Below, in pieces: positions 303-28,716 of a DNA stretch of 50,825 nt (within the stretch, counting starts at the first letter, position 1; each line of letters starts with the position of its first letter). Below the pieces are notes generated by a model. It did not search any database. It had not been told where the DNA came from and saw only the letters and a program-made list of their open reading frames with translations. The stretch is from a virus (Duplodnaviria; Caudoviricetes), in IMG/VR virus record IMGVR_UViG_3300036780_000409, positions 1 through 50,825 of that record. One strand, 5' to 3'. The position numbers and the translations under genes are program-made.

Positions 303-700
303 ACGCATCAGAGATTCGCTATCTGGCGCGCCACATCATCGGTGGCAGCCCTGCCGATCAGGAGGGTTACTTAACACTGCTTGGGGAAATCGCCGCCCAA
401 CTCGCCGAACAAAACGATATCAGCCGCAACATTTTGGGACAAAGCGCGCAACTCGCGGCAATCAGAGAACACGAAACCGCCTTAATTGAGAGCGAAAACG
501 CTCGTCGCGCCGTGGTTGATGACAGGTTGCAGGCGTCGATGGACCGCTCCGATTCGCGCCACGAAAGCGGAGCTGAAATTATCGGCAAGGCGATGGCTGA
601 AGTTCTCATGAAAATCGATGAGATCAGCAAAACGCTTTCCAGGATGGCCTCAGGGCAACGCGTATCGAACGAACTCAAGGCGGGAGGCGATCCGCGATGA
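299..700 (+). CDS. Hypothetical helical/coiled-coil protein
   Basis: GGAGG upstream; ATGA overlaps on both sides. Confidence 0.7.
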   Translation: MNASEIRYLARHIIGGSPADQEGYLTLLGEIAAQLAEQNDISRNILGQSAQLAAIREHETALIESENARRAVVDDRLQASMDRSDSRHESGAEIIGKAMAEVLMKIDEISKTLSRMASGQRVSNELKAGGDPR

Positions 701-1041
701 AACCTGCTCCCTCCAAGCGAATTGACATCGACCCTCTCGACTCCGAGTGGCTATCGATGCAGCGCCGCCAAGCCGCCGACGAAGCGCGCGACTCGGCCGA
801 CATGCAGGAATTGCGCGACAGGTCCCGCGTGGCCGCCGTGCGCTATCAAGCAGCTAAGAAAGAGTTGGTTGACGAAGCCATGATCGCCTTTGCGGACGAA
901 GCGCCACTGATCACGCCGAGGCCTTCGGTCTATCTTGCGACGTTCGCCAGCGTTCTCGTTCTAGGCGCTGTGGTGTTTGTGGGATGGGCCGTAGCGCGAT
1001 TCCCGAGCTGGCACGAAATGGTGCGGAGATTTTTGCAGTGA
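697..1041 (+). CDS. Hypothetical protein with C-terminal TM helix
   Basis: GGAGG upstream; hydrophobic segment VYLATFASVLVLGAVVFVGWAV. Confidence 0.7.
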   Translation: MKPAPSKRIDIDPLDSEWLSMQRRQAADEARDSADMQELRDRSRVAAVRYQAAKKELVDEAMIAFADEAPLITPRPSVYLATFASVLVLGAVVFVGWAVARFPSWHEMVRRFLQ

Positions 1042-1199
1042 ATCATTTTTCGTGGCGCGGCGTGGAAGGACACGCGGGAAGTGCGGGAACAAGCGCACAG
1101 GGATGTTCCGGTCGGTTTCAAGGCCTGGGCCGGTTAGAGCGCACCCTCGACGCAGCCGGTATCGAGTCCGGTCGCCACGCGATTTCTGTTTCGGAATAA
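1038..1199 (+). CDS. Possible 53-aa ORF overlapping the tRNA-like structure
   Basis: GTG coupled to the upstream stop with GGAG upstream. The sequence looks constrained by RNA structure, so coding status is doubtful. Confidence 0.3.
   Translation: MNHFSWRGVEGHAGSAGTSAQGCSGRFQGLGRLERTLDAAGIESGRHAISVSE
1051..1180 (+). ncRNA. tRNA-like structured RNA with expanded, branched anticodon domain
   Basis: 7-bp acceptor-like stem CGTGGCG/CGCCACG; D-like arm GCGT-GGAAGGAC-ACGC; T-like arm GCCGG-TATCGAGT-CCGGT directly before the 3' acceptor strand; no encoded CCA. Confidence 0.55.
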
Positions 1200-1217
1200 T
1201 TCGAAGGGAGAAAAAAG

Positions 1218-2291
1218 ATGGCAACGGCAAGAGAAGCTTTAACACCAACGGCGGTTCAGCCGATGCGCGTTCGAGAAATCGGCGGTGGTGCGCTCGCTCA
1301 AATGAGCACGTCGGCTGCAATCACGATGGCCGAGGTCGATAAACAAATCAGCACGGCCCACGCCTACCCGCGAGACATCACAACCTTTCGGCAGGAGGCT
1401 TTGGAACTCGTGACGTTGAACCAATCCATCGCCGATGAGTGCATTTACGCTCTGCCGCGCGGCGGAAAAGTGATCGAAGGGCCGAGCGCGCGTTTTGCCG
1501 AGATCATCGCGAGTTGTTGGGGAAACTCCCGCGCTGGCGCCCGCGTGATGGCCGAGGAGCGCAATTTCATCGTTGCCCAGGGCGTCTTCCACGATCTGCA
1601 GCGCAACGTCGCCATCAATTACGAAGTGAAGCGCCGGATCACCGACCGCGAGGGTGGCCGCTATAACGACGACATGATTTCCGTCACGGCGAATGCGGCA
1701 TGCTCGATCGCCTTGCGCAATGCCGTGCTCAAGGGCGTGCCGAAAGCTTTCTGGTCCGATATTTACGAAGCCGCGAAGAAAGTGGCTGAGGGCAGCGCGC
1801 AGACCCTCGAAAAGCGCCGCATGGATTGGATCACGATCTTCGAGAAGCAGGGAATCACACGCGCGCAAATTTTCAAAACGCTCAACGTGAAGGGCCTGCC
1901 GGACATCGGCCTCGAACAGCTCGTGATCCTCAAGGGGATTCAGAACGCCGTAAAGAACGGGGAATACACGGTCGAACAGGCTTTCTCCGCGCAAGGCGTT
2001 CCCGCGCCGGGAGATCCAGAGGATGCCGCGCAACATGAAATCTCCGAAGCGGAAGCGGCGCAACTTACGAAGGTCAAGGAACTCTGCCAGGAACTCGGTC
2101 ACACCGAAGGCAACATGAACATGTTGATCGGTCAATACCAAGATCACATCGACGCGCTCATCGAAAAGCTCACGTCCGATGTTGAGGCGAAGCGCAAATA
2201 CGAACGCGAGGAAGTCGAGAAAGGCGCCGCGAAGCCCGTTGCGGAAACAGCGAAACAGAAGTCGGGCAAGGGCGGCAAAGCCCTGTTCTAG
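1218..2291 (+). CDS. Probable single-strand annealing/recombination protein
   Basis: AYPRD...YALPRGGKVIEGPSARFAE...WGN motif set, typical of phage proteins encoded next to exonucleases; charged flexible C-terminus; good RBS. Confidence 0.6.
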   Translation: MATAREALTPTAVQPMRVREIGGGALAQMSTSAAITMAEVDKQISTAHAYPRDITTFRQEALELVTLNQSIADECIYALPRGGKVIEGPSARFAEIIASCWGNSRAGARVMAEERNFIVAQGVFHDLQRNVAINYEVKRRITDREGGRYNDDMISVTANAACSIALRNAVLKGVPKAFWSDIYEAAKKVAEGSAQTLEKRRMDWITIFEKQGITRAQIFKTLNVKGLPDIGLEQLVILKGIQNAVKNGEYTVEQAFSAQGVPAPGDPEDAAQHEISEAEAAQLTKVKELCQELGHTEGNMNMLIGQYQDHIDALIEKLTSDVEAKRKYEREEVEKGAAKPVAETAKQKSGKGGKALF

Positions 2292-2379: not shown

Positions 2380-2393
2380 CAGGAGATTTGAAA

Positions 2394-3539
2394 ATGTCGC
2401 AAACGCTACGCCAGATTCAGACGCAAGAGCAAACGGCAATCCCGGCCCTCAGTCAATCGAAATACGAGGACATGGGCTGCGAGGTTTTGTACGTCGCCAA
2501 ACACATCGACGGCATGCGCTCGGACAATGCCGCATCGCGCCGGGGCTCGGAAGTTCACGACATCCTGAAAACCTACATTCAGGGTTTGGTCGCCTCGAAG
2601 CTCCGCGCGGACGTGGTTTTCTTTGCGCAGCTTCTTGAAACCGCCAGTCAGGACGCTTTTGACGCGTTGGAGAATTTCGGTGATCGCTATGAGATCGATT
2701 ACGACAAAGTGGCCGGGACCGAAATGCGTATCAGTCTTGACGCGGACTTCAAGCCGTGCCGACACGAAGACGCCGTGTACGAAGGAACCATCGATCTCCT
2801 GTTGATGCTCTCGCCGAAGAAGGCTGTCATCCCGGACTATAAGTCTTATTTTTCCATCATTGATGCCGACACTTTCCAATCTTCTTTTTACCCGATGCTC
2901 GTGATGTGCGCGATTGAATCGATAGAGGAAGTCGAATTCGTCCTTGAGTTCATCCGTTATGGAGCAGCTCGCAGCGTGACGTACACGCGAGACGATTTGC
3001 CTAAGCTCAAGCGGAAAGCGGAAGCGGCGCGCGCGCGGCAACTATCGCTTCACGGATATAACTATCCGCATTCTGCCACTCCGGGCCGTCATTGCACCTT
3101 CTGCCCGAAGCTCACGCACGGATGCCCGGTTGCGCAGACCAATCGCTACGCGACGATGACGCCGGCAGAGCGCGTTTCGTTCGGCGTGTGGCTCAAAGAG
3201 GCCACGAAAGAGAATACCGAAGTCCTCAAGGGCTTCGTGGTCGAAGGCGGTTCAGTCACCTGCGAAGACGCGAACGGCACGAAGTACGAGGCTGGATTCA
3301 AAAAGCAGGATCGGCGCTCGTTTCCACTCAACGGCGCATTTCGGATTCTCAATTCGTATTTCGAGCTACATCCGGGCGACCGCGCGTTCTCGGAAAAACT
3401 CACCATCGGCGGGATGTCCAGTTACCTGAAAGCCAAGATGCGCGCTCCGCTCGCGGCGCAGATGGCGGACGTGGCGAAGATCAAATCCATAACGAAATTC
3501 ACGATTGGCGATCCCGACGACGAGGACGAAGAGGAATAG
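2394..3539 (+). CDS. PD-(D/E)XK exonuclease, RecB/Cas4-like, probable Fe-S cluster
   Basis: LSQS..C, RGSEVH, GTIDLL, DYKS, FQ..FY and C-terminal CTFC...GC motifs. An alternative TTG start lies at 2388. Confidence 0.85.
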   Translation: MSQTLRQIQTQEQTAIPALSQSKYEDMGCEVLYVAKHIDGMRSDNAASRRGSEVHDILKTYIQGLVASKLRADVVFFAQLLETASQDAFDALENFGDRYEIDYDKVAGTEMRISLDADFKPCRHEDAVYEGTIDLLLMLSPKKAVIPDYKSYFSIIDADTFQSSFYPMLVMCAIESIEEVEFVLEFIRYGAARSVTYTRDDLPKLKRKAEAARARQLSLHGYNYPHSATPGRHCTFCPKLTHGCPVAQTNRYATMTPAERVSFGVWLKEATKENTEVLKGFVVEGGSVTCEDANGTKYEAGFKKQDRRSFPLNGAFRILNSYFELHPGDRAFSEKLTIGGMSSYLKAKMRAPLAAQMADVAKIKSITKFTIGDPDDEDEEE

Positions 3540-3541
3540 CG

Positions 3542-4513
3542 ATGAGCGAAGCCGCAAAGACGTGTGGTTATAAGGCGAAGACGATCAAGAGTGTCATCCG
3601 CCGAAAGGTAGACCACTGGCTAAAAAGCATTGACGACGAATCGCTACGTTCGGCGCTTGCGGACAAGGTGATCGTTACCGGCGGCTGCGTCGCCTCGATG
3701 CTCCTTGGTGAAGAAGTGAAAGATTTTGATATCTATCTGCGTGATCACGACAGCGTTTTGGCTCTTGCGAATTATTACCTGGGAAAGTTTTCAACTCGCA
3801 AGCATGCCGGAATCGATGTGCCTCTCTCCGTCGAAGATGACGGAATCCGCATTCGCATAGTGGCCAAATCCTCGGGGATAGCCAGCGAAGAGGGCACCGA
3901 AAAGCCGTACCAATATTTCGAATCTCAGCCGGACCAAGAGAGCGGCGAGTACGTTTCGGACGTCATCACCGATCCGGGAACGATTGAAGAGGCTTACGAA
4001 GAGACTGAGGAAAAGGCTCAAAAAACGAAGGGCGACGCCAAGGCGAAATACCGCCCAGTTTTTATGACCAGCAATGCAATCACTCTCAGCGATAGAGTCC
4101 AGATAATCCTTCGTTTCTACGGCGAGCCCGACACGATTCACGAAAACTACGATTACGTTCACTGCACCAACTATTGGAAGAGTTGGGATGGCGGGGAACT
4201 CGTTTTGCGGCCCGCTGCGTTGGAAGCGCTCTTGTCCCGCACGCTGAATTACGTGGGCAGCAAGTATCCCATTTGCTCGGCCGTGCGCATGCGCAAATTC
4301 GTTCAGCGCGGATGGCGGATAAACGCAGGGCAAATTCTCAAGATGTCTATGCAGATTAGCTCACTGGACCTTACGGACATAAAGGTGCTTGAGGATCAAC
4401 TTACGGGCGTCGATACCGCGTATTTCGTGCAATTGATTGAAAGGCTCAAGGAAAAAGACCCGGAGAAAGTGGATTCGGCTTATTTGGTCGAGATCATCGA
4501 CAGGATTTTTTAG
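3542..4513 (+). CDS. Nucleotidyltransferase, CCA-adding/poly(A) polymerase head-like
   Basis: IVTGGCVASMLLGEEVKDFDIYL (GG...DxD), YDYVHC and RMRKFVQRGW motifs. Start moved from 3092 to the ATG at 3542, after GAGG. Confidence 0.75.
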   Translation: MSEAAKTCGYKAKTIKSVIRRKVDHWLKSIDDESLRSALADKVIVTGGCVASMLLGEEVKDFDIYLRDHDSVLALANYYLGKFSTRKHAGIDVPLSVEDDGIRIRIVAKSSGIASEEGTEKPYQYFESQPDQESGEYVSDVITDPGTIEEAYEETEEKAQKTKGDAKAKYRPVFMTSNAITLSDRVQIILRFYGEPDTIHENYDYVHCTNYWKSWDGGELVLRPAALEALLSRTLNYVGSKYPICSAVRMRKFVQRGWRINAGQILKMSMQISSLDLTDIKVLEDQLTGVDTAYFVQLIERLKEKDPEKVDSAYLVEIIDRIF

Positions 4514-4534: not shown

Positions 4535-6502
4535 ATGCGAATTAATTCAATAAAGCTACGCGATTTCCGCTGCCATCACAGCTTCTCGACGACGCTGGAC
4601 GATCTTAACTTTTTCGTCGGGGCAAACGCTTCGGGCAAAACGTCGATTGCCCAAGCCGTGGAATTCGCTCTCACCGGCAAATGCTCCGTGACCGACGCAG
4701 CCGGCCGCAACGCCGAGGATCTCATTTTGATCGGCGCGAAGGAGTTTGAAATCGTCCTCGACGTGACGAAGGACGACGTTTCGGGAAAGGTCGCGCGGAG
4801 CAAGAGCGCGCGCGCCCACGAACTCACGTTGAATGATCGGGCGTTGCCCTTGCCGGAAGCGCAGCGCCGGATTTACGAGGTGCTAGGCGTTACGGGCGAC
4901 GTACTTTCGGCGTGCCTGAACTCGGGCAGGTTTCTCGCGATGGACGAGAAGGCCCAAAAAACGCTGCTGGCTCAGGTGTTGGCTAGCGATAGCGCGAAGG
5001 CCCCGCAGTCCATCGTGGACGATGTTAAGCACACCACCGGCGAGTGGGGATTGGGAACGCCTGACGGAGTGATCGATTCCATCGACAACATCGACATGTA
5101 CCACAAATTTTTCTACGAAAAGCGCACCGAAACCAACCGCGACCTGAAATCCCTCGGCTCGATGGAAGAACCAAGCGAGCCCGTCGCGGGATACGCCGAT
5201 CAAAAGAGCGCCTTGGACGATCTCCGCCGCCAGCTCACGCTCGCCGAGAAGTCCAAGAGCGGCGCCGAACAGCGCCATTCCAGCCTGATCGAATCGAACA
5301 AGCGCACGCGCCGCATGATCGACGCGCGCAAGAGCGAGGCCGAAGCGCGGACGCTCACCGATCTCGCGGTAAAGGATTTCGAGGCGCGCATCGCCGACGC
5401 AGACAAAGCGAAGGGCATTGCTGCAAAGATCAAAGCACTCGAATCCAATCTCGTAACCAAGAAGGGCAAGATCGACCGGGAAAACGCGGCGGAAGTCGCG
5501 CGCCTCACGCAAGCCTCTTCCGATCTTCGCGCCTCCATTGAGGAGACGGAATCGGTAGTTGCGCTCCTGGTTGCCATCAAAGCCACCTGCCCGGCGTGCC
5601 AGCGCGTGCTCAAGGCGTCCGAGAAGGCCGAGATCACTTCCACCCTCGGGGCGAAGCTGAAGCTCAACCGGAGCTTGCTCGAAGAGGCCGAACGCGAATT
5701 AAAGGCCGCGAACGAACGTGAATATCCTGAGGAAATCACGCAAATCTCCCGCGCCATTGCCGACGAGAAGCGTTCCCTCGAAAACATCGGCGACGTCGCC
5801 CAAGTCGAATCGCAACTCCGCGCACACCGCGAAGCCATCGTGGAAATGGGCCGCTGCGACCGCGACCTGAAGGAAATCAAGGACCCTCCCGCGCTCGACA
5901 CGTCCGAAAGTGACAAAACGATTGACGAGCTTACCGCGCGCATCCGTAAGGGCGAGGAAGTGATCAGCGGCTTGCGCGAGGCCGAACAGAAGCGCGAAGC
6001 CTACAAATCGTGGCAGGACCGCAAGGCGTCTCTCGAATCGCGCGTGGTGGTGCTCACGGGGCTGATCGATTTCTTCGGGCCGAACGGAATCAAAAGTCAA
6101 ATGGTCGGGGATAAGATCGGCCCCTTCACTGCCGCGATCAACGAATCGCTCCGCGCGTTTGGCTATGCCGTGCGCTTCACGCTCGAACCGTACAGTTTCC
6201 AGGTGGGCGCTTTTGAGCGCGAGGGATGGCGCACGCTACGTCAATTGTCCGAGTCCGAGCAATTCCGCTTCGGCGTTTCCTTCCAGATCGCGCTGGCGAA
6301 GGCGACCGGCCTCAATTTCGCGCTCATCGACCGGGCGGACGTGCTGGATTCCGACAGCCGCGCCGAATTGACCGAAATGTTGCAGGCGAGCGGCCTCGAG
6401 CAAGTGATCGTTTTCAGCACGAGCGATAAGCCCATTCCTCAGGAAGCGCCGGCAGGCATGAAGTTTGTGCAGCTTGGGGCGAAGGAAGAGGTTGCGGCGT
6501 GA
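4535..6502 (+). CDS. Rad50/SbcC-like SMC ATPase with zinc hook
   Basis: Walker A GANASGKTS; long coiled coil with central CPAC; variant signature LSESE; variant Walker B ALIDRAD. Confidence 0.9.
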   Translation: MRINSIKLRDFRCHHSFSTTLDDLNFFVGANASGKTSIAQAVEFALTGKCSVTDAAGRNAEDLILIGAKEFEIVLDVTKDDVSGKVARSKSARAHELTLNDRALPLPEAQRRIYEVLGVTGDVLSACLNSGRFLAMDEKAQKTLLAQVLASDSAKAPQSIVDDVKHTTGEWGLGTPDGVIDSIDNIDMYHKFFYEKRTETNRDLKSLGSMEEPSEPVAGYADQKSALDDLRRQLTLAEKSKSGAEQRHSSLIESNKRTRRMIDARKSEAEARTLTDLAVKDFEARIADADKAKGIAAKIKALESNLVTKKGKIDRENAAEVARLTQASSDLRASIEETESVVALLVAIKATCPACQRVLKASEKAEITSTLGAKLKLNRSLLEEAERELKAANEREYPEEITQISRAIADEKRSLENIGDVAQVESQLRAHREAIVEMGRCDRDLKEIKDPPALDTSESDKTIDELTARIRKGEEVISGLREAEQKREAYKSWQDRKASLESRVVVLTGLIDFFGPNGIKSQMVGDKIGPFTAAINESLRAFGYAVRFTLEPYSFQVGAFEREGWRTLRQLSESEQFRFGVSFQIALAKATGLNFALIDRADVLDSDSRAELTEMLQASGLEQVIVFSTSDKPIPQEAPAGMKFVQLGAKEEVAA

Positions 6503-24141: not shown

Positions 24142-24315
24142 CTAGACTGAAGTTGTTATCTGATTCGCTTCGGCAAACTTCCTCAGCGCCAATTCAATCA
24201 CTTGCGACTCGCCAATTCCCAGCTTGTCTTTGGCTGCTTTCATAATCAGTGCGGCGTGGACGGTGATGCGCAGGTCTTTTCTGATTCGCTTGTTTAGCGG
24301 AACCTTGCCCGTCAT
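24142..24315 (-). CDS. Ribbon-helix-helix DNA-binding protein (57 aa)
   Basis: Not in the ORF track. MTGKVPLNKRIRKDLRITVHAALIMKAAKDKLGIGESQVIELALRKFAE shows the alternating beta strand, helix, G-x-x-x-S turn, helix pattern. Confidence 0.7.
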   Translation of the reverse strand: MTGKVPLNKRIRKDLRITVHAALIMKAAKDKLGIGESQVIELALRKFAEANQITTSV

Positions 24316-24350
24316 TTGACGTAAAAGTACCGGAATCGCTCCACAAAATC
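24305..24350 (+). repeat. 46-bp perfect direct repeat, copy 1
   Basis: TTGCCCGTCATTTGACGTAAAAGTACCGGAATCGCTCCACAAAATC, identical to 28671-28716. Confidence 0.97.
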
Positions 24351-28670: not shown

Positions 28671-28716
28671 TTGCCCGTCATTTGACGTAAAAGTACCGGA
28701 ATCGCTCCACAAAATC
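28671..28716 (+). repeat. 46-bp perfect direct repeat, copy 2
   Basis: Identical to 24305-24350. Confidence 0.97.

What the first reader, a model, noticed from the sequence alone, without database searches (positions are those of the whole stretch)
1051..1180. tRNA mimic with a branched insert replacing the anticodon arm, upstream of the recombination operon
Seen: acceptor-like stem CGTGGCG (1051-1057)/CGCCACG (1173-1179), then a 2-nt linker, then a D-like arm GCGT-GGAAGGAC-ACGC with GG in the loop. A T-like arm GCCGG-TATCGAGT-CCGGT has an 8-nt loop. Between the arms lie about 80 nt that can fold as GTGCG/CGCAC enclosing GGAACA/TGTTCC and CCGGTC/GGCCGG hairpins. There is no anticodon loop and no CCA. 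Inference: this may be an RNase P/Z-processed regulatory RNA (compare the P1 C4 and P4 CI RNAs), an mRNA processing signal, or a decoy for tRNA-targeting defence nucleases.
Basis: partly seen in the sequence, partly recalled or inferred. Interest (0 to 1): 0.7.

Follow-up and report, generated by a model that had tools for sequence, protein, structure and literature searches.

The report
tRNA-shaped spacer before phage recombination genes
A 130-base non-coding stretch in a soil prophage folds into three of the four arms of a transfer RNA just ahead of its DNA-recombination genes; it may be a cutting signal for the cell's tRNA-trimming enzymes, but with no relatives to compare it could still be a chance look-alike.

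Summary
The acceptor-, D- and T-like helices dominate the local fold, with pair probabilities 0.8-1.0. The proposed inner fold is not supported: two hairpins (1081-1098, 1099-1147) replace the anticodon arm.

Against a tRNA mimic:
- ARAGORN, with or without introns, and Rfam find nothing.
- Folding energy is ordinary, z -0.7.
- The T loop has 8 nt, and U8, A14, A21 and U33 are absent.
- No homologue exists in 185 related loci, so covariation is untestable.

For it:
- A strict, post hoc tRNA-core descriptor fires in 6 of 60,000 shuffles of this gap and in 7.6% of whole-window shuffles.
- In 1.4 Mb of related phage DNA, 8 of its 9 hits are tRNA(-like) genes that ARAGORN calls.
- The block is non-coding and has 68% GC between AT-rich flanks.
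- Some relatives carry odd tRNA-like genes at the same junction.
- The operon encodes a CCA-adding-enzyme-like protein.

Verdict: a plausible tRNA-like processing module (about 0.4). Chance resemblance is a near-equal rival (about 0.35).

The parts
697..1041 (+). Upstream ORF (114 aa, no family; C-terminal hydrophobic segment). Its TGA stop at 1039-1041 opens the 176-nt gap.
   Evidence: No relative in IMG/VR.
1042..1050 (+). AT-rich 9-nt spacer (ATCATTTTT). T1050 would be the -1 base of an RNase P site.
   Evidence: GC 0.11.
1051..1057 (+). Acceptor-like stem, 5' strand CGTGGCG.
   Evidence: pair probabilities 0.81-1.0 locally, 0 in contexts of 500 nt or more.
1060..1075 (+). D-like hairpin GCGT-GGAAGGAC-ACGC (GG in the loop; G at position 14 and C at position 21 where tRNAs have A).
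   Evidence: pair probabilities 0.98-0.99.
1081..1098 (+). Hairpin GTGCG-GGAACAAG-CGCAC (5 bp, 8-nt loop, no U33). It stands where an anticodon arm would.
   Evidence: MFE; pair probability 0.94-0.95.
1099..1147 (+). Extended irregular hairpin (49 nt). It stands where a long variable arm would.
   Evidence: MFE and centroid.
1155..1172 (+). T-like hairpin GCCGG-TATCGAGT-CCGGT. This is a G53-C61-type closing pair and a TTCGA motif with one extra A (1161).
   Evidence: pair probabilities 0.86-0.94 in every context tested.
1173..1180 (+). Acceptor-like 3' strand CGCCACG plus discriminator-like C1180. With the T stem it gives a 12-bp stack. No CCA follows.
1189..1206 (+). Hairpin TTTCGGA-ATAA-TTCGAAG abutting the Shine-Dalgarno GGAG (1207-1210); ATG at 1218.
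   Evidence: Pair probabilities 0.74-0.98 in all contexts. A like hairpin sits in 23 of 80 relatives' leaders, against 14 of 316 other ORFs.
1218..2291 (+). Rad52/Sak-like single-strand annealing protein (phrog_3657).
2388..3539 (+). PD-(D/E)XK exonuclease.
3536..4513 (+). Class II nucleotidyltransferase-like protein with a CCA-adding enzyme / poly(A) polymerase fold.
   Evidence: Foldseek top 13 rows are CCA-adding or related tRNA nucleotidyltransferases, E 1.7e-4 to 9e-4. PF01743 head motif at 3674-3742, E 6.2e-4, below cut-off. phrog_4400.
4535..6502 (+). SbcC/Rad50-like ATPase.

Best explanation
The 130 nt at 1051-1180 are a non-coding, non-decoding, tRNA-shaped RNA module. It is embedded in the transcript that runs from the upstream small genes into the recombination operon.

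Shown here:
- A 7-bp acceptor-like helix stacks on a 5-bp T-like helix, giving the 12-bp minihelix that tRNA-end enzymes measure.
- There is a D-like hairpin with GG in its loop.
- Two hairpins stand in place of the anticodon arm.
- The block is GC-rich between AT-rich flanks.
- A separate hairpin abuts the ribosome-binding site.

Inferred:
- The module works like a plant-mitochondrial t-element, or like a tRNA inside a tRNA-mRNA co-transcript.
- Host RNase P cuts between T1050 and C1051. RNase Z or RNase E cuts at or just after C1180.
- These cuts uncouple the upstream message. They leave an operon mRNA whose 5' end lies 20-38 nt before the ATG, capped by the 1189-1206 hairpin.
- The released RNA lacks CCA. 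It could be tailed by the host enzyme or by the operon's own CCA-adding-like protein.

I put about 0.5 on the element being a genuine tRNA-derived structure, and about 0.4 on this statement as a whole.
For: - Core helices are present and dominate the local ensemble.
- The strict tRNA-core descriptor hits in 6 of 60,000 dinucleotide shuffles of the gap, and gives 0.094 hits per whole-window shuffle.
- In 539,731 + 864,462 bp of related phage loci, both strands, the descriptor with a D arm hits 9 distinct elements. ARAGORN of them as tRNA or tRNA-like (7 by default, L100 with the intron option). One, L167, it does not call.
- The element is 68% GC, against 11% and 35% in its flanks. Other gaps are mostly 45-58%; one has 66%.
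- It is non-coding by codon usage.
- Relatives carry odd tRNA-like genes beside the same gene. L039/L043/L044 have a tRNA-Lys-like sequence with CCA 41 nt upstream (ARAGORN calls it in L043/L044, not L039). L004/L026 have a 59-nt mini element. L100 has a tRNA-like gene with an 81-nt insert directly downstream.
- ARAGORN intron-type calls number 3 in the loci, against 2 in 5 shuffles of 607 kb.
- The operon encodes a CCA-adding-like protein. Its family sits among tRNA genes in 8 of 78 loci and abuts one in L142, L168 and L173.
- Precedent: t-elements direct RNase P/Z cleavage of mRNAs and receive non-templated C/A (PMC1920247, passages read).
Against: - ARAGORN does not report this structure by default, with introns, or at lowered thresholds of 60-80%. 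At those thresholds it gives other, mutually overlapping models.
- Rfam gives nothing even at E <= 10.
- MFE z is -0.7.
- The T loop has 8 nt, which breaks the canonical T-loop register.
- Position 8 is C, 14 is G and 21 is C. There is no U33. The first pair is C-G.
- Linkers of 5 and 7 nt do not fit tRNA geometry.
- Acceptor pairing vanishes in 500-900-nt folds.
- There is no homologue anywhere searched, so no covariation.
- The only syntenic relative (L115, gap 36 nt) and the nearest relative of the gene (L009, gap 17 nt) have no such element.
- The median upstream gap in 79 relatives is 9 nt.
- The strict descriptor was defined after the fact.
- 70 of 78 loci with the nucleotidyltransferase have no tRNA gene within 6 kb.
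Confidence: 0.4

Rival explanations
1. Chance look-alike. The gap is an ordinary promoter or 5'-UTR spacer. In a GC-rich 130 nt, three short helices happen to fall in tRNA order. The only functional parts are the ribosome-binding site and perhaps the hairpin at 1189-1206.
For: - z -0.7.
- The loose descriptor is at chance: 7 against 9.4 +/- 3.7, and 225 hits in 553 kb of loci.
- The strict descriptor still hits in 7.6% of whole-window shuffles and was tailored post hoc.
- All tRNA and RNA-family tools are blank.
- tRNA-invariant bases are missing and the T loop has 8 nt.
- No conservation anywhere.
- 14 of 79 relatives also have gaps of 150 nt or more before this gene.
Against: - Shuffles of the gap itself reach the strict descriptor in 6 of 60,000.
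- In natural phage DNA the descriptor fires almost only on real tRNA genes.
- There is a sharp GC island exactly between the stem ends.
Confidence: 0.35
2. A decaying remnant of a phage tRNA (or tRNA-like) gene that once stood at this junction, now without function.
For: - tRNA-like genes occupy the same junction in some relatives.
- The T loop differs from canonical TTCGAGT by one inserted A.
- Invariant D-loop and position-8 bases are lost.
Against: - All 16 pairs of the three core helices are intact, one of them G-U. Neutral decay should break pairs as readily as loops.
- No sequence likeness to the relatives' tRNA-like genes.
Confidence: 0.1
3. A trans-acting tRNA mimic. It is matured and CCA-tailed by the operon's own nucleotidyltransferase. 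It then acts as a decoy or sponge for enzymes that attack tRNA acceptor ends, or as a regulator.
For: - A CCA-less minihelix and a CCA-adding-like gene lie in one operon.
- The record has no canonical tRNA gene.
- Phage tRNAs are reported to counter tRNA-targeting defences (PMC10264068, abstract seen in the listing).
Against: - No anticodon loop, so it is no bait for anticodon nucleases.
- The syntenic relative L115 has the enzyme but no element.
- The enzyme family mostly occurs without nearby tRNA genes.
- Pure inference.
Confidence: 0.08
4. A DNA-level site (operator, origin, or att or tRNA-gene fragment left by integration), not an RNA.
For: - IMG/VR classes the record as a provirus.
- The region is rich in inverted repeats.
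Against: - No tyrosine integrase, serine recombinase or rve transposase anywhere in the record.
- No repeat of the element elsewhere in the record.
- Genes on both sides are phage-like and co-oriented.
Confidence: 0.05

Closest known systems
Plant-mitochondrial t-elements (tRNA-like elements in mRNA leaders and trailers)
   Same: - A non-canonical cloverleaf inside an mRNA leader.
- No decoding role.
- Proposed cleavage by RNase P at the 5' end and RNase Z at the 3' end sets mRNA ends.
- The released piece can receive non-templated C/A (PMC1920247, passages read).
   Different: - They are in an organelle, not a phage.
- t-elements keep the exact GGTTCRANYCC T-arm motif and are about 74 nt. Here the motif carries an inserted A and the element is 130 nt with two extra arms.
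- Processing is not shown here.
tRNA(-like) genes with large inserts or odd shapes in related phages (L100 3821-3972, L088 375-530, L043/L044 2381-2469)
   Same: - Same phage gene neighbourhood.
- 7-8-bp acceptor, D arm and T arm closing a long interior (81- and 62-nt inserts).
- They sit directly before an ORF start.
   Different: - Those have canonical 7-nt T loops and an anticodon-type stem, and pass ARAGORN. The window's element does not.
- No sequence homology.
YrlA / bacterial Y RNA
   Same: A tRNA-like D/T/acceptor module joined to a non-tRNA domain. A weak YrlA-like match occurs in relative L003 (24.8 bits, E 0.24).
   Different: - YrlA is circularly permuted: its ends lie in the Ro-binding stem and its acceptor is closed by a loop. 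Here the ends form the acceptor.
- No YrlA hit in the window at E <= 10.
- No TROVE/Ro gene.
tmRNA tRNA-like domain
   Same: Acceptor plus T arm closing a large interior, with no anticodon arm.
   Different: - 130 nt is far shorter than a tmRNA. That tmRNAs also carry pseudoknots and a tag reading frame is from memory; neither was looked for here.
- ARAGORN tmRNA mode and Rfam are blank.
Phage P1 C4 / P4 CI antisense RNAs and phage T4 stable 'species 1' RNA (names and properties recalled, not checked)
   Same: Small phage RNAs said to be matured by RNase P thanks to tRNA-like ends.
   Different: - No Rfam family matched.
- My literature search for T4 'species 1 RNA' found no paper holding that phrase, so this comparison rests on memory alone.

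Membership tests
Canonical (decoding) tRNA | 7-bp acceptor stem abutting a 5-bp T stem | tested here: met
   1051-1057/1173-1179 and 1155-1159/1168-1172, with no spacer.
Canonical (decoding) tRNA | 7-nt T loop of TTCRA type | tested here: not met
   The loop is TATCGAGT, 8 nt, with an extra A after the first T.
Canonical (decoding) tRNA | Anticodon arm: 5-bp stem and 7-nt loop with U33, one base after the D arm | tested here: not met
   The nearest candidate, 1081-1098, has an 8-nt loop GGAACAAG without U33. It lies 5 nt after the D arm.
Canonical (decoding) tRNA | Invariant U8, A14, G18-G19, A21 | tested here: not met
   C8, G14 and C21; only GG is present. The list of invariant positions is from established knowledge.
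Canonical (decoding) tRNA | Recognised by tRNA finders or the Rfam tRNA clan | tested here: not met
   ARAGORN by default, with introns, and at thresholds of 60-80% does not report it. Rfam gives no hit at E <= 10. Rfam also missed L100, which ARAGORN calls.
tmRNA | tRNA-like domain plus tag ORF and pseudoknots; detected by ARAGORN -m or Rfam | tested here: not met
YrlA / Y RNA | Permuted tRNA-like module, Ro-binding stem, neighbouring rsr (TROVE) gene | tested here: not met
   No YrlA match; TROVE absent from the record; the topology is not permuted.
t-element-like processing signal | Non-canonical cloverleaf inside an mRNA leader or trailer | tested here: met
t-element-like processing signal | Transcript ends coincide with the element's ends; cleavage by RNase P/Z | not testable with these tools
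   No RNA run holds the sequence. Only DNA contigs could be laid.
Conserved structured RNA (any family) | Homologues with compensatory base changes | not testable with these tools
   No homologue in 27 + 80 + 78 loci, nor by an exact 28-mer scan of IMG/VR.
Intrinsic terminator | GC-rich hairpin immediately followed by a U run | tested here: inconclusive
   The scan lists a weak site at 1170-1184 (6 pairs, tail TCTGTTTCGG), while the count of sites equals the shuffles.

The most novel reading that the evidence does not exclude
A temperate soil phage carries, in one operon, two things. One is a non-decoding tRNA-shaped RNA with two extra arms in place of the anticodon arm. The other is its own CCA-adding-like nucleotidyltransferase. 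Host RNase P/Z excise the RNA and the phage enzyme tails it. It then acts in trans as a tRNA acceptor-end mimic, for instance to soak up host defence enzymes that modify or cut tRNA 3' ends, while its excision also sets the 5' end of the recombination mRNA. Related phages swap different tRNA-like cassettes into the same junction.
Probability: 0.08. Interest if true: 0.8.

Novelty: new variant of a known kind. Interest (0 to 1): 0.45.

Why it matters
If it is real, it would be a phage example of tRNA-like punctuation of an mRNA. That mechanism is documented for organelles and for bacterial tRNA-mRNA co-transcripts. It would also be a tRNA-shaped RNA that standard tRNA finders and Rfam miss.

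The wider pattern seen here may matter more than this single element:
- Non-canonical tRNA-like cassettes occur beside one annealing-protein gene in several phage lineages.
- A CCA-adding-like enzyme family is scattered through phage genomes.

Together these suggest phages use tRNA-shaped RNAs for purposes other than decoding, which bears on the current question of why phages carry tRNA genes. If it is chance, the case is a useful calibration. Three short helices in tRNA order are common; only the T-loop sequence and the abutting perfect acceptor make this one unusual.

Tried and rejected
- Expression: no RNA holder listed. Only DNA contigs could be laid. One contig of the probable source sample covers 600-2225 with no difference, so the extra A in the T loop is not an obvious assembly slip. 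This is not independent evidence.
- Homologue hunts that found nothing for the gap: blastn and nhmmer against 26, 80 and 78 loci; an exact 28-mer in IMG/VR; the upstream 114-aa protein in IMG/VR; GenBank phages, where the only match (Microcystis phage Mae-JY30) lies inside the annealing-protein gene, not the gap.
- Family-wide leader idea: I asked whether a T-arm motif upstream of this gene is general. It is not. Canonical T-arm-like hairpins in 553 kb number about what chance predicts (22 rows), and none of the 80 closer relatives has one just upstream.
- Small-protein reading: ORFs 984-1199 (+) and 961-1320 (-) have no Pfam family, and no frame of the element looks coding. ORF 1052-1342 (+) overlaps the annealing-protein gene by 125 nt and was not scanned.
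- tmRNA-like tag: the frame after the TGA stop at 1039-1041 stays open for 31 codons to TAG 1135-1137. I saw nothing to support read-through or a tag.
- Start-codon masking: the pairing 1042-1051 with 1210-1219 has probability 0.04 or less.
- L100's tRNA-like element has no relative by blastn in the held loci or by one exact 23-mer scan of IMG/VR, so it could not supply a covariance model. No covariance model was built.

Full report
SETTING. The window is a complete IMG/VR provirus record of 50,825 bases. Only soil-metagenome DNA runs hold it. The early-region genes around the finding lie on the + strand. The first 17 kb hold replication and recombination genes. Terminase, portal, sheath, tape measure and baseplate genes follow. 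The finding lies in a 176-nt gap (1042-1217) between a 114-aa ORF of no known family (697-1041) and a 357-aa gene (1218-2291).

The 357-aa protein belongs to phrog_3657. Its AlphaFold model (pLDDT 81) resembles Rad52-type annealing proteins. Foldseek gives only weak hits: 80-alpha Sak, Mgm101, RAD52 and Red-beta at E 0.04-0.3. VIA-align gives Z 6.3 (RAD52), 5.8 (Mgm101), 5.4 (Sak) and 4.6 (Red-beta). Downstream lie a PD-(D/E)XK exonuclease, a nucleotidyltransferase-like gene and an SbcC-like ATPase. 'Recombination operon' is therefore a fair label. The fold match is middling.

THE OBSERVATION. The MFE fold of the gap and of 1051-1180 contains the acceptor-, D- and T-like helices. Their pair probabilities are 0.8-1.0 in isolation and in a 260-nt context.

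Two of its helices share C1108-C1109. It scores -39.5 against -55.3 kcal/mol, and its pairs have probability 0.03 or less. The interior is predicted as a 5-bp hairpin with an 8-nt loop (1081-1098, p 0.94) followed by a 49-nt extended hairpin (1099-1147). The shape is thus a five-way junction, laid out like a class II tRNA with an oversized variable arm. In 500- and 900-nt contexts the acceptor pairing is lost, while the T-like hairpin and a hairpin at 1189-1206 persist.

IS IT MORE THAN CHANCE? By stability, no: z is -0.66 and -0.68, and -0.70 for the opposite strand. None of ten other gaps I tested in the window is strongly structured either.

By arm layout alone, no. A loose descriptor (perfect 7-bp acceptor, any D-like arm, any T-like arm) hits 7 times in the window. 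Dinucleotide shuffles give 9.4 +/- 3.7. With a slightly wider span range (55-200 nt) it hits 225 times in 553 kb of related loci.

The sequence of the T loop changes the picture. A strict descriptor requires TTCRA with at most one inserted base in a 5-bp hairpin. It also requires a perfect 7-bp acceptor abutting within 0-1 nt, and a D arm. It hits once in the window, at 1051-1179.
- At least one hit occurs in 7.6% of 1000 whole-window shuffles, with a mean of 0.094.
- It hits in 6 of 60,000 shuffles of the gap itself.
- In related phage DNA (539,731 and 864,462 bp, both strands) it hits 9 distinct elements. Seven are tRNA genes that ARAGORN calls by default. One (L100) ARAGORN calls with the intron option. 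One (L167) is uncalled.

I wrote this descriptor after seeing the element, so these figures overstate the significance by an unknown factor. I take them as moderate evidence, not proof.

Two further direct observations fit an RNA gene. The block is 68% GC between flanks of 11% (9 nt) and 35% (37 nt), while other gaps are mostly 45-58%; one has 66%. Its best reading frame scores below 97.7% of in-frame coding windows.

WHAT SPEAKS AGAINST A tRNA MIMIC.
- ARAGORN finds no tRNA or tmRNA in the window and none with introns. At thresholds lowered to 60-80% it reports only other, mutually overlapping models.
- Rfam finds nothing at gathering scores, nor at E <= 10 in 451 nt. Rfam also missed L100's ARAGORN-called element.
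- The T loop has 8 nt. Positions 8, 14 and 21 are C, G and C. There is no U33. The first pair is C-G. The linkers around the interior are too long for tRNA geometry.

RELATIVES. No homologue of the gap exists in 26 loci found with the protein. There is none in 80 closer loci found with a family alignment, at 47-63% identity. There is none in 78 loci found with the nucleotidyltransferase. An exact 28-mer scan of IMG/VR also found none. Covariation cannot be tested.

The nearest relative of the gene (L009, 56%) has a 17-nt gap. The only syntenic relative (L115) has a 36-nt gap. In 79 relatives the median upstream gap is 9 nt, and 14 have gaps of 150 nt or more.

The junction is nevertheless a recurrent home for odd tRNA-like sequences:
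- L043/L044 carry an 89-nt tRNA-Lys(CUU)-like gene with encoded CCA, 41 nt before the start codon. L039 holds the same sequence at 98.6% identity, but ARAGORN does not call it. Rfam scores it only 26 bits against tRNA-Sec.
- L004/L026 carry a 59-nt element with a 7-bp acceptor, one hairpin and a canonical T arm about 20 nt before the start.
- L100 has a tRNA-like gene with an 81-nt insert directly after the gene and 3 nt before the next ATG, z -2.4.
- L088 has one with a 62-nt insert 2 kb upstream.
- ARAGORN's intron-type calls number 3 in these loci, against 2 in five shuffles of the same 607 kb.
- In one subgroup (L031, L032, L037, L039, L041, L043, L044, L053, L060) a conserved 74-nt 5' module and a conserved hairpin-plus-SD 3' module are found, most loci holding both. 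Between them lie interchangeable cassettes, one of which is that tRNA-like gene.

THE NEIGHBOURING ENZYME. The product of 3536-4513 has 5,247 database relatives. Its model (pLDDT 71) matches class II CCA-adding enzymes and related tRNA nucleotidyltransferases in the top 13 Foldseek rows: E 1.7e-4 to 9e-4, about 300 aligned columns, but TM only 0.32-0.38. The PolyA_pol head motif matches at 3674-3742 below the cut-off (15.5 bits, E 6.2e-4). In 8 of 78 loci the family lies within 6 kb of tRNA genes that ARAGORN calls. It abuts one in L142, L168 and L173. The window's record has this enzyme, no canonical tRNA gene, and a CCA-less tRNA-shaped element in the same operon. That is suggestive, not evidence of a link: 70 of 78 loci show no nearby tRNA gene.

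A 7-bp hairpin (1189-1206) abuts the Shine-Dalgarno GGAG and is stable in every context tested. A 5-7-bp hairpin within 0-3 nt of the SD occurs in 23 of 80 relatives' leaders. It occurs in 14 of 316 other + strand ORFs of 120 aa or more in the same loci (14 of the 158 with an SD-like motif), and in 42 of 1600 random 45-mers. Thirteen of the 23 belong to one related group, so the enrichment is modest.

MECHANISM. I commit to this reading. The element is a non-decoding tRNA-like module that tRNA-end enzymes recognise through its 12-bp acceptor/T stack.
- RNase P would cut before C1051. RNase Z or E would cut after C1180.
- This would free an operon mRNA headed by the 1189-1206 hairpin.
- It works like plant-mitochondrial t-elements. 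Those are non-canonical cloverleaves that set mRNA ends and whose excised pieces carry added C/A (PMC1920247, passages read).
Only the anatomy is shown; the processing is inferred.

Confidence is about 0.4. Pure chance is the main rival at about 0.35. A decayed tRNA gene (0.1), a trans-acting decoy or enzyme substrate (0.08) and a DNA-level site (0.05) follow. The DNA-level rival is weakened because the record holds no integrase, resolvase or rve transposase.

NOVELTY AND VERDICT. The element belongs to no described RNA family. If real, it is a new variant of a known kind: tRNA-like processing signals and tRNA mimics. It is a singleton without expression data, so the claim cannot be settled here. 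The interest score is moderate.

Noticed in passing
window 24305-24350 and 28671-28716: A 46-nt perfect direct repeat (82% over 76 nt). Both copies lie in gaps just upstream of structural-gene blocks. It may be a shared late promoter or regulator site.
   Followed up: no
window 3536-4513: A phage gene with a class II CCA-adding-enzyme-like fold. It has 5,247 relatives carrying the precomputed family PF26128, whose name I could not look up. In other phages it sits among tRNA genes in 8 of 78 loci.
   Followed up: partly
L003 1283-1927 (also L014, L015): A 645-nt region free of ORFs of 70 aa or more, about 1.2-1.4 kb upstream of the annealing-protein gene. It holds two perfect T arms and a third T-arm-like motif, plus a canonical-looking D arm in permuted order. 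There is a weak Rfam YrlA match (24.8 bits, E 0.24). ARAGORN calls nothing.
   Followed up: partly
L031, L032, L037, L039, L041, L043, L044, L053, L060, upstream of the annealing-protein gene: A modular non-coding leader. Most of these loci hold a conserved 74-nt 5' module and a conserved hairpin-SD 3' module, with swapped middle cassettes. One cassette is a tRNA-Lys(CUU)-like gene with CCA (L039/L043/L044). Others are closed by 20-22-bp stems (L037/L041; L053, z -5.0).
   Followed up: partly
L100 3821-3972; L088 375-530; L087 4872-5262: tRNA-like genes that ARAGORN calls only when introns are allowed, with inserts of 81, 62 and 299 nt. L100's insert holds a short ATG...TGA frame. L100 has no relative by blastn in the held loci or by one exact 23-mer scan of IMG/VR.
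   Followed up: partly
L004 / L026 2889-2947: A 59-nt mini tRNA-like element with a 7-bp acceptor, no D arm, one hairpin and a canonical T arm GTGGG-TTCGAGT-CCTGC. It ends about 18 nt before the annealing-protein start codon.
   Followed up: no
window 1189-1206 and leaders of 23 of 80 related loci: A hairpin abutting the Shine-Dalgarno sequence of the annealing-protein gene recurs with different sequences in several lineages. It may be a 5'-end stabiliser or a translational operator.
   Followed up: partly
L003 2286-2392 (= L015 672-778): A sub-threshold match to the purine riboswitch aptamer (31.1 bits against the gathering score of 37, E 0.26).
   Followed up: no
L167 7321-7392: A 72-nt sequence that meets the strict tRNA-core descriptor about 400 nt downstream of the nucleotidyltransferase gene. 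ARAGORN does not call it.
   Followed up: no
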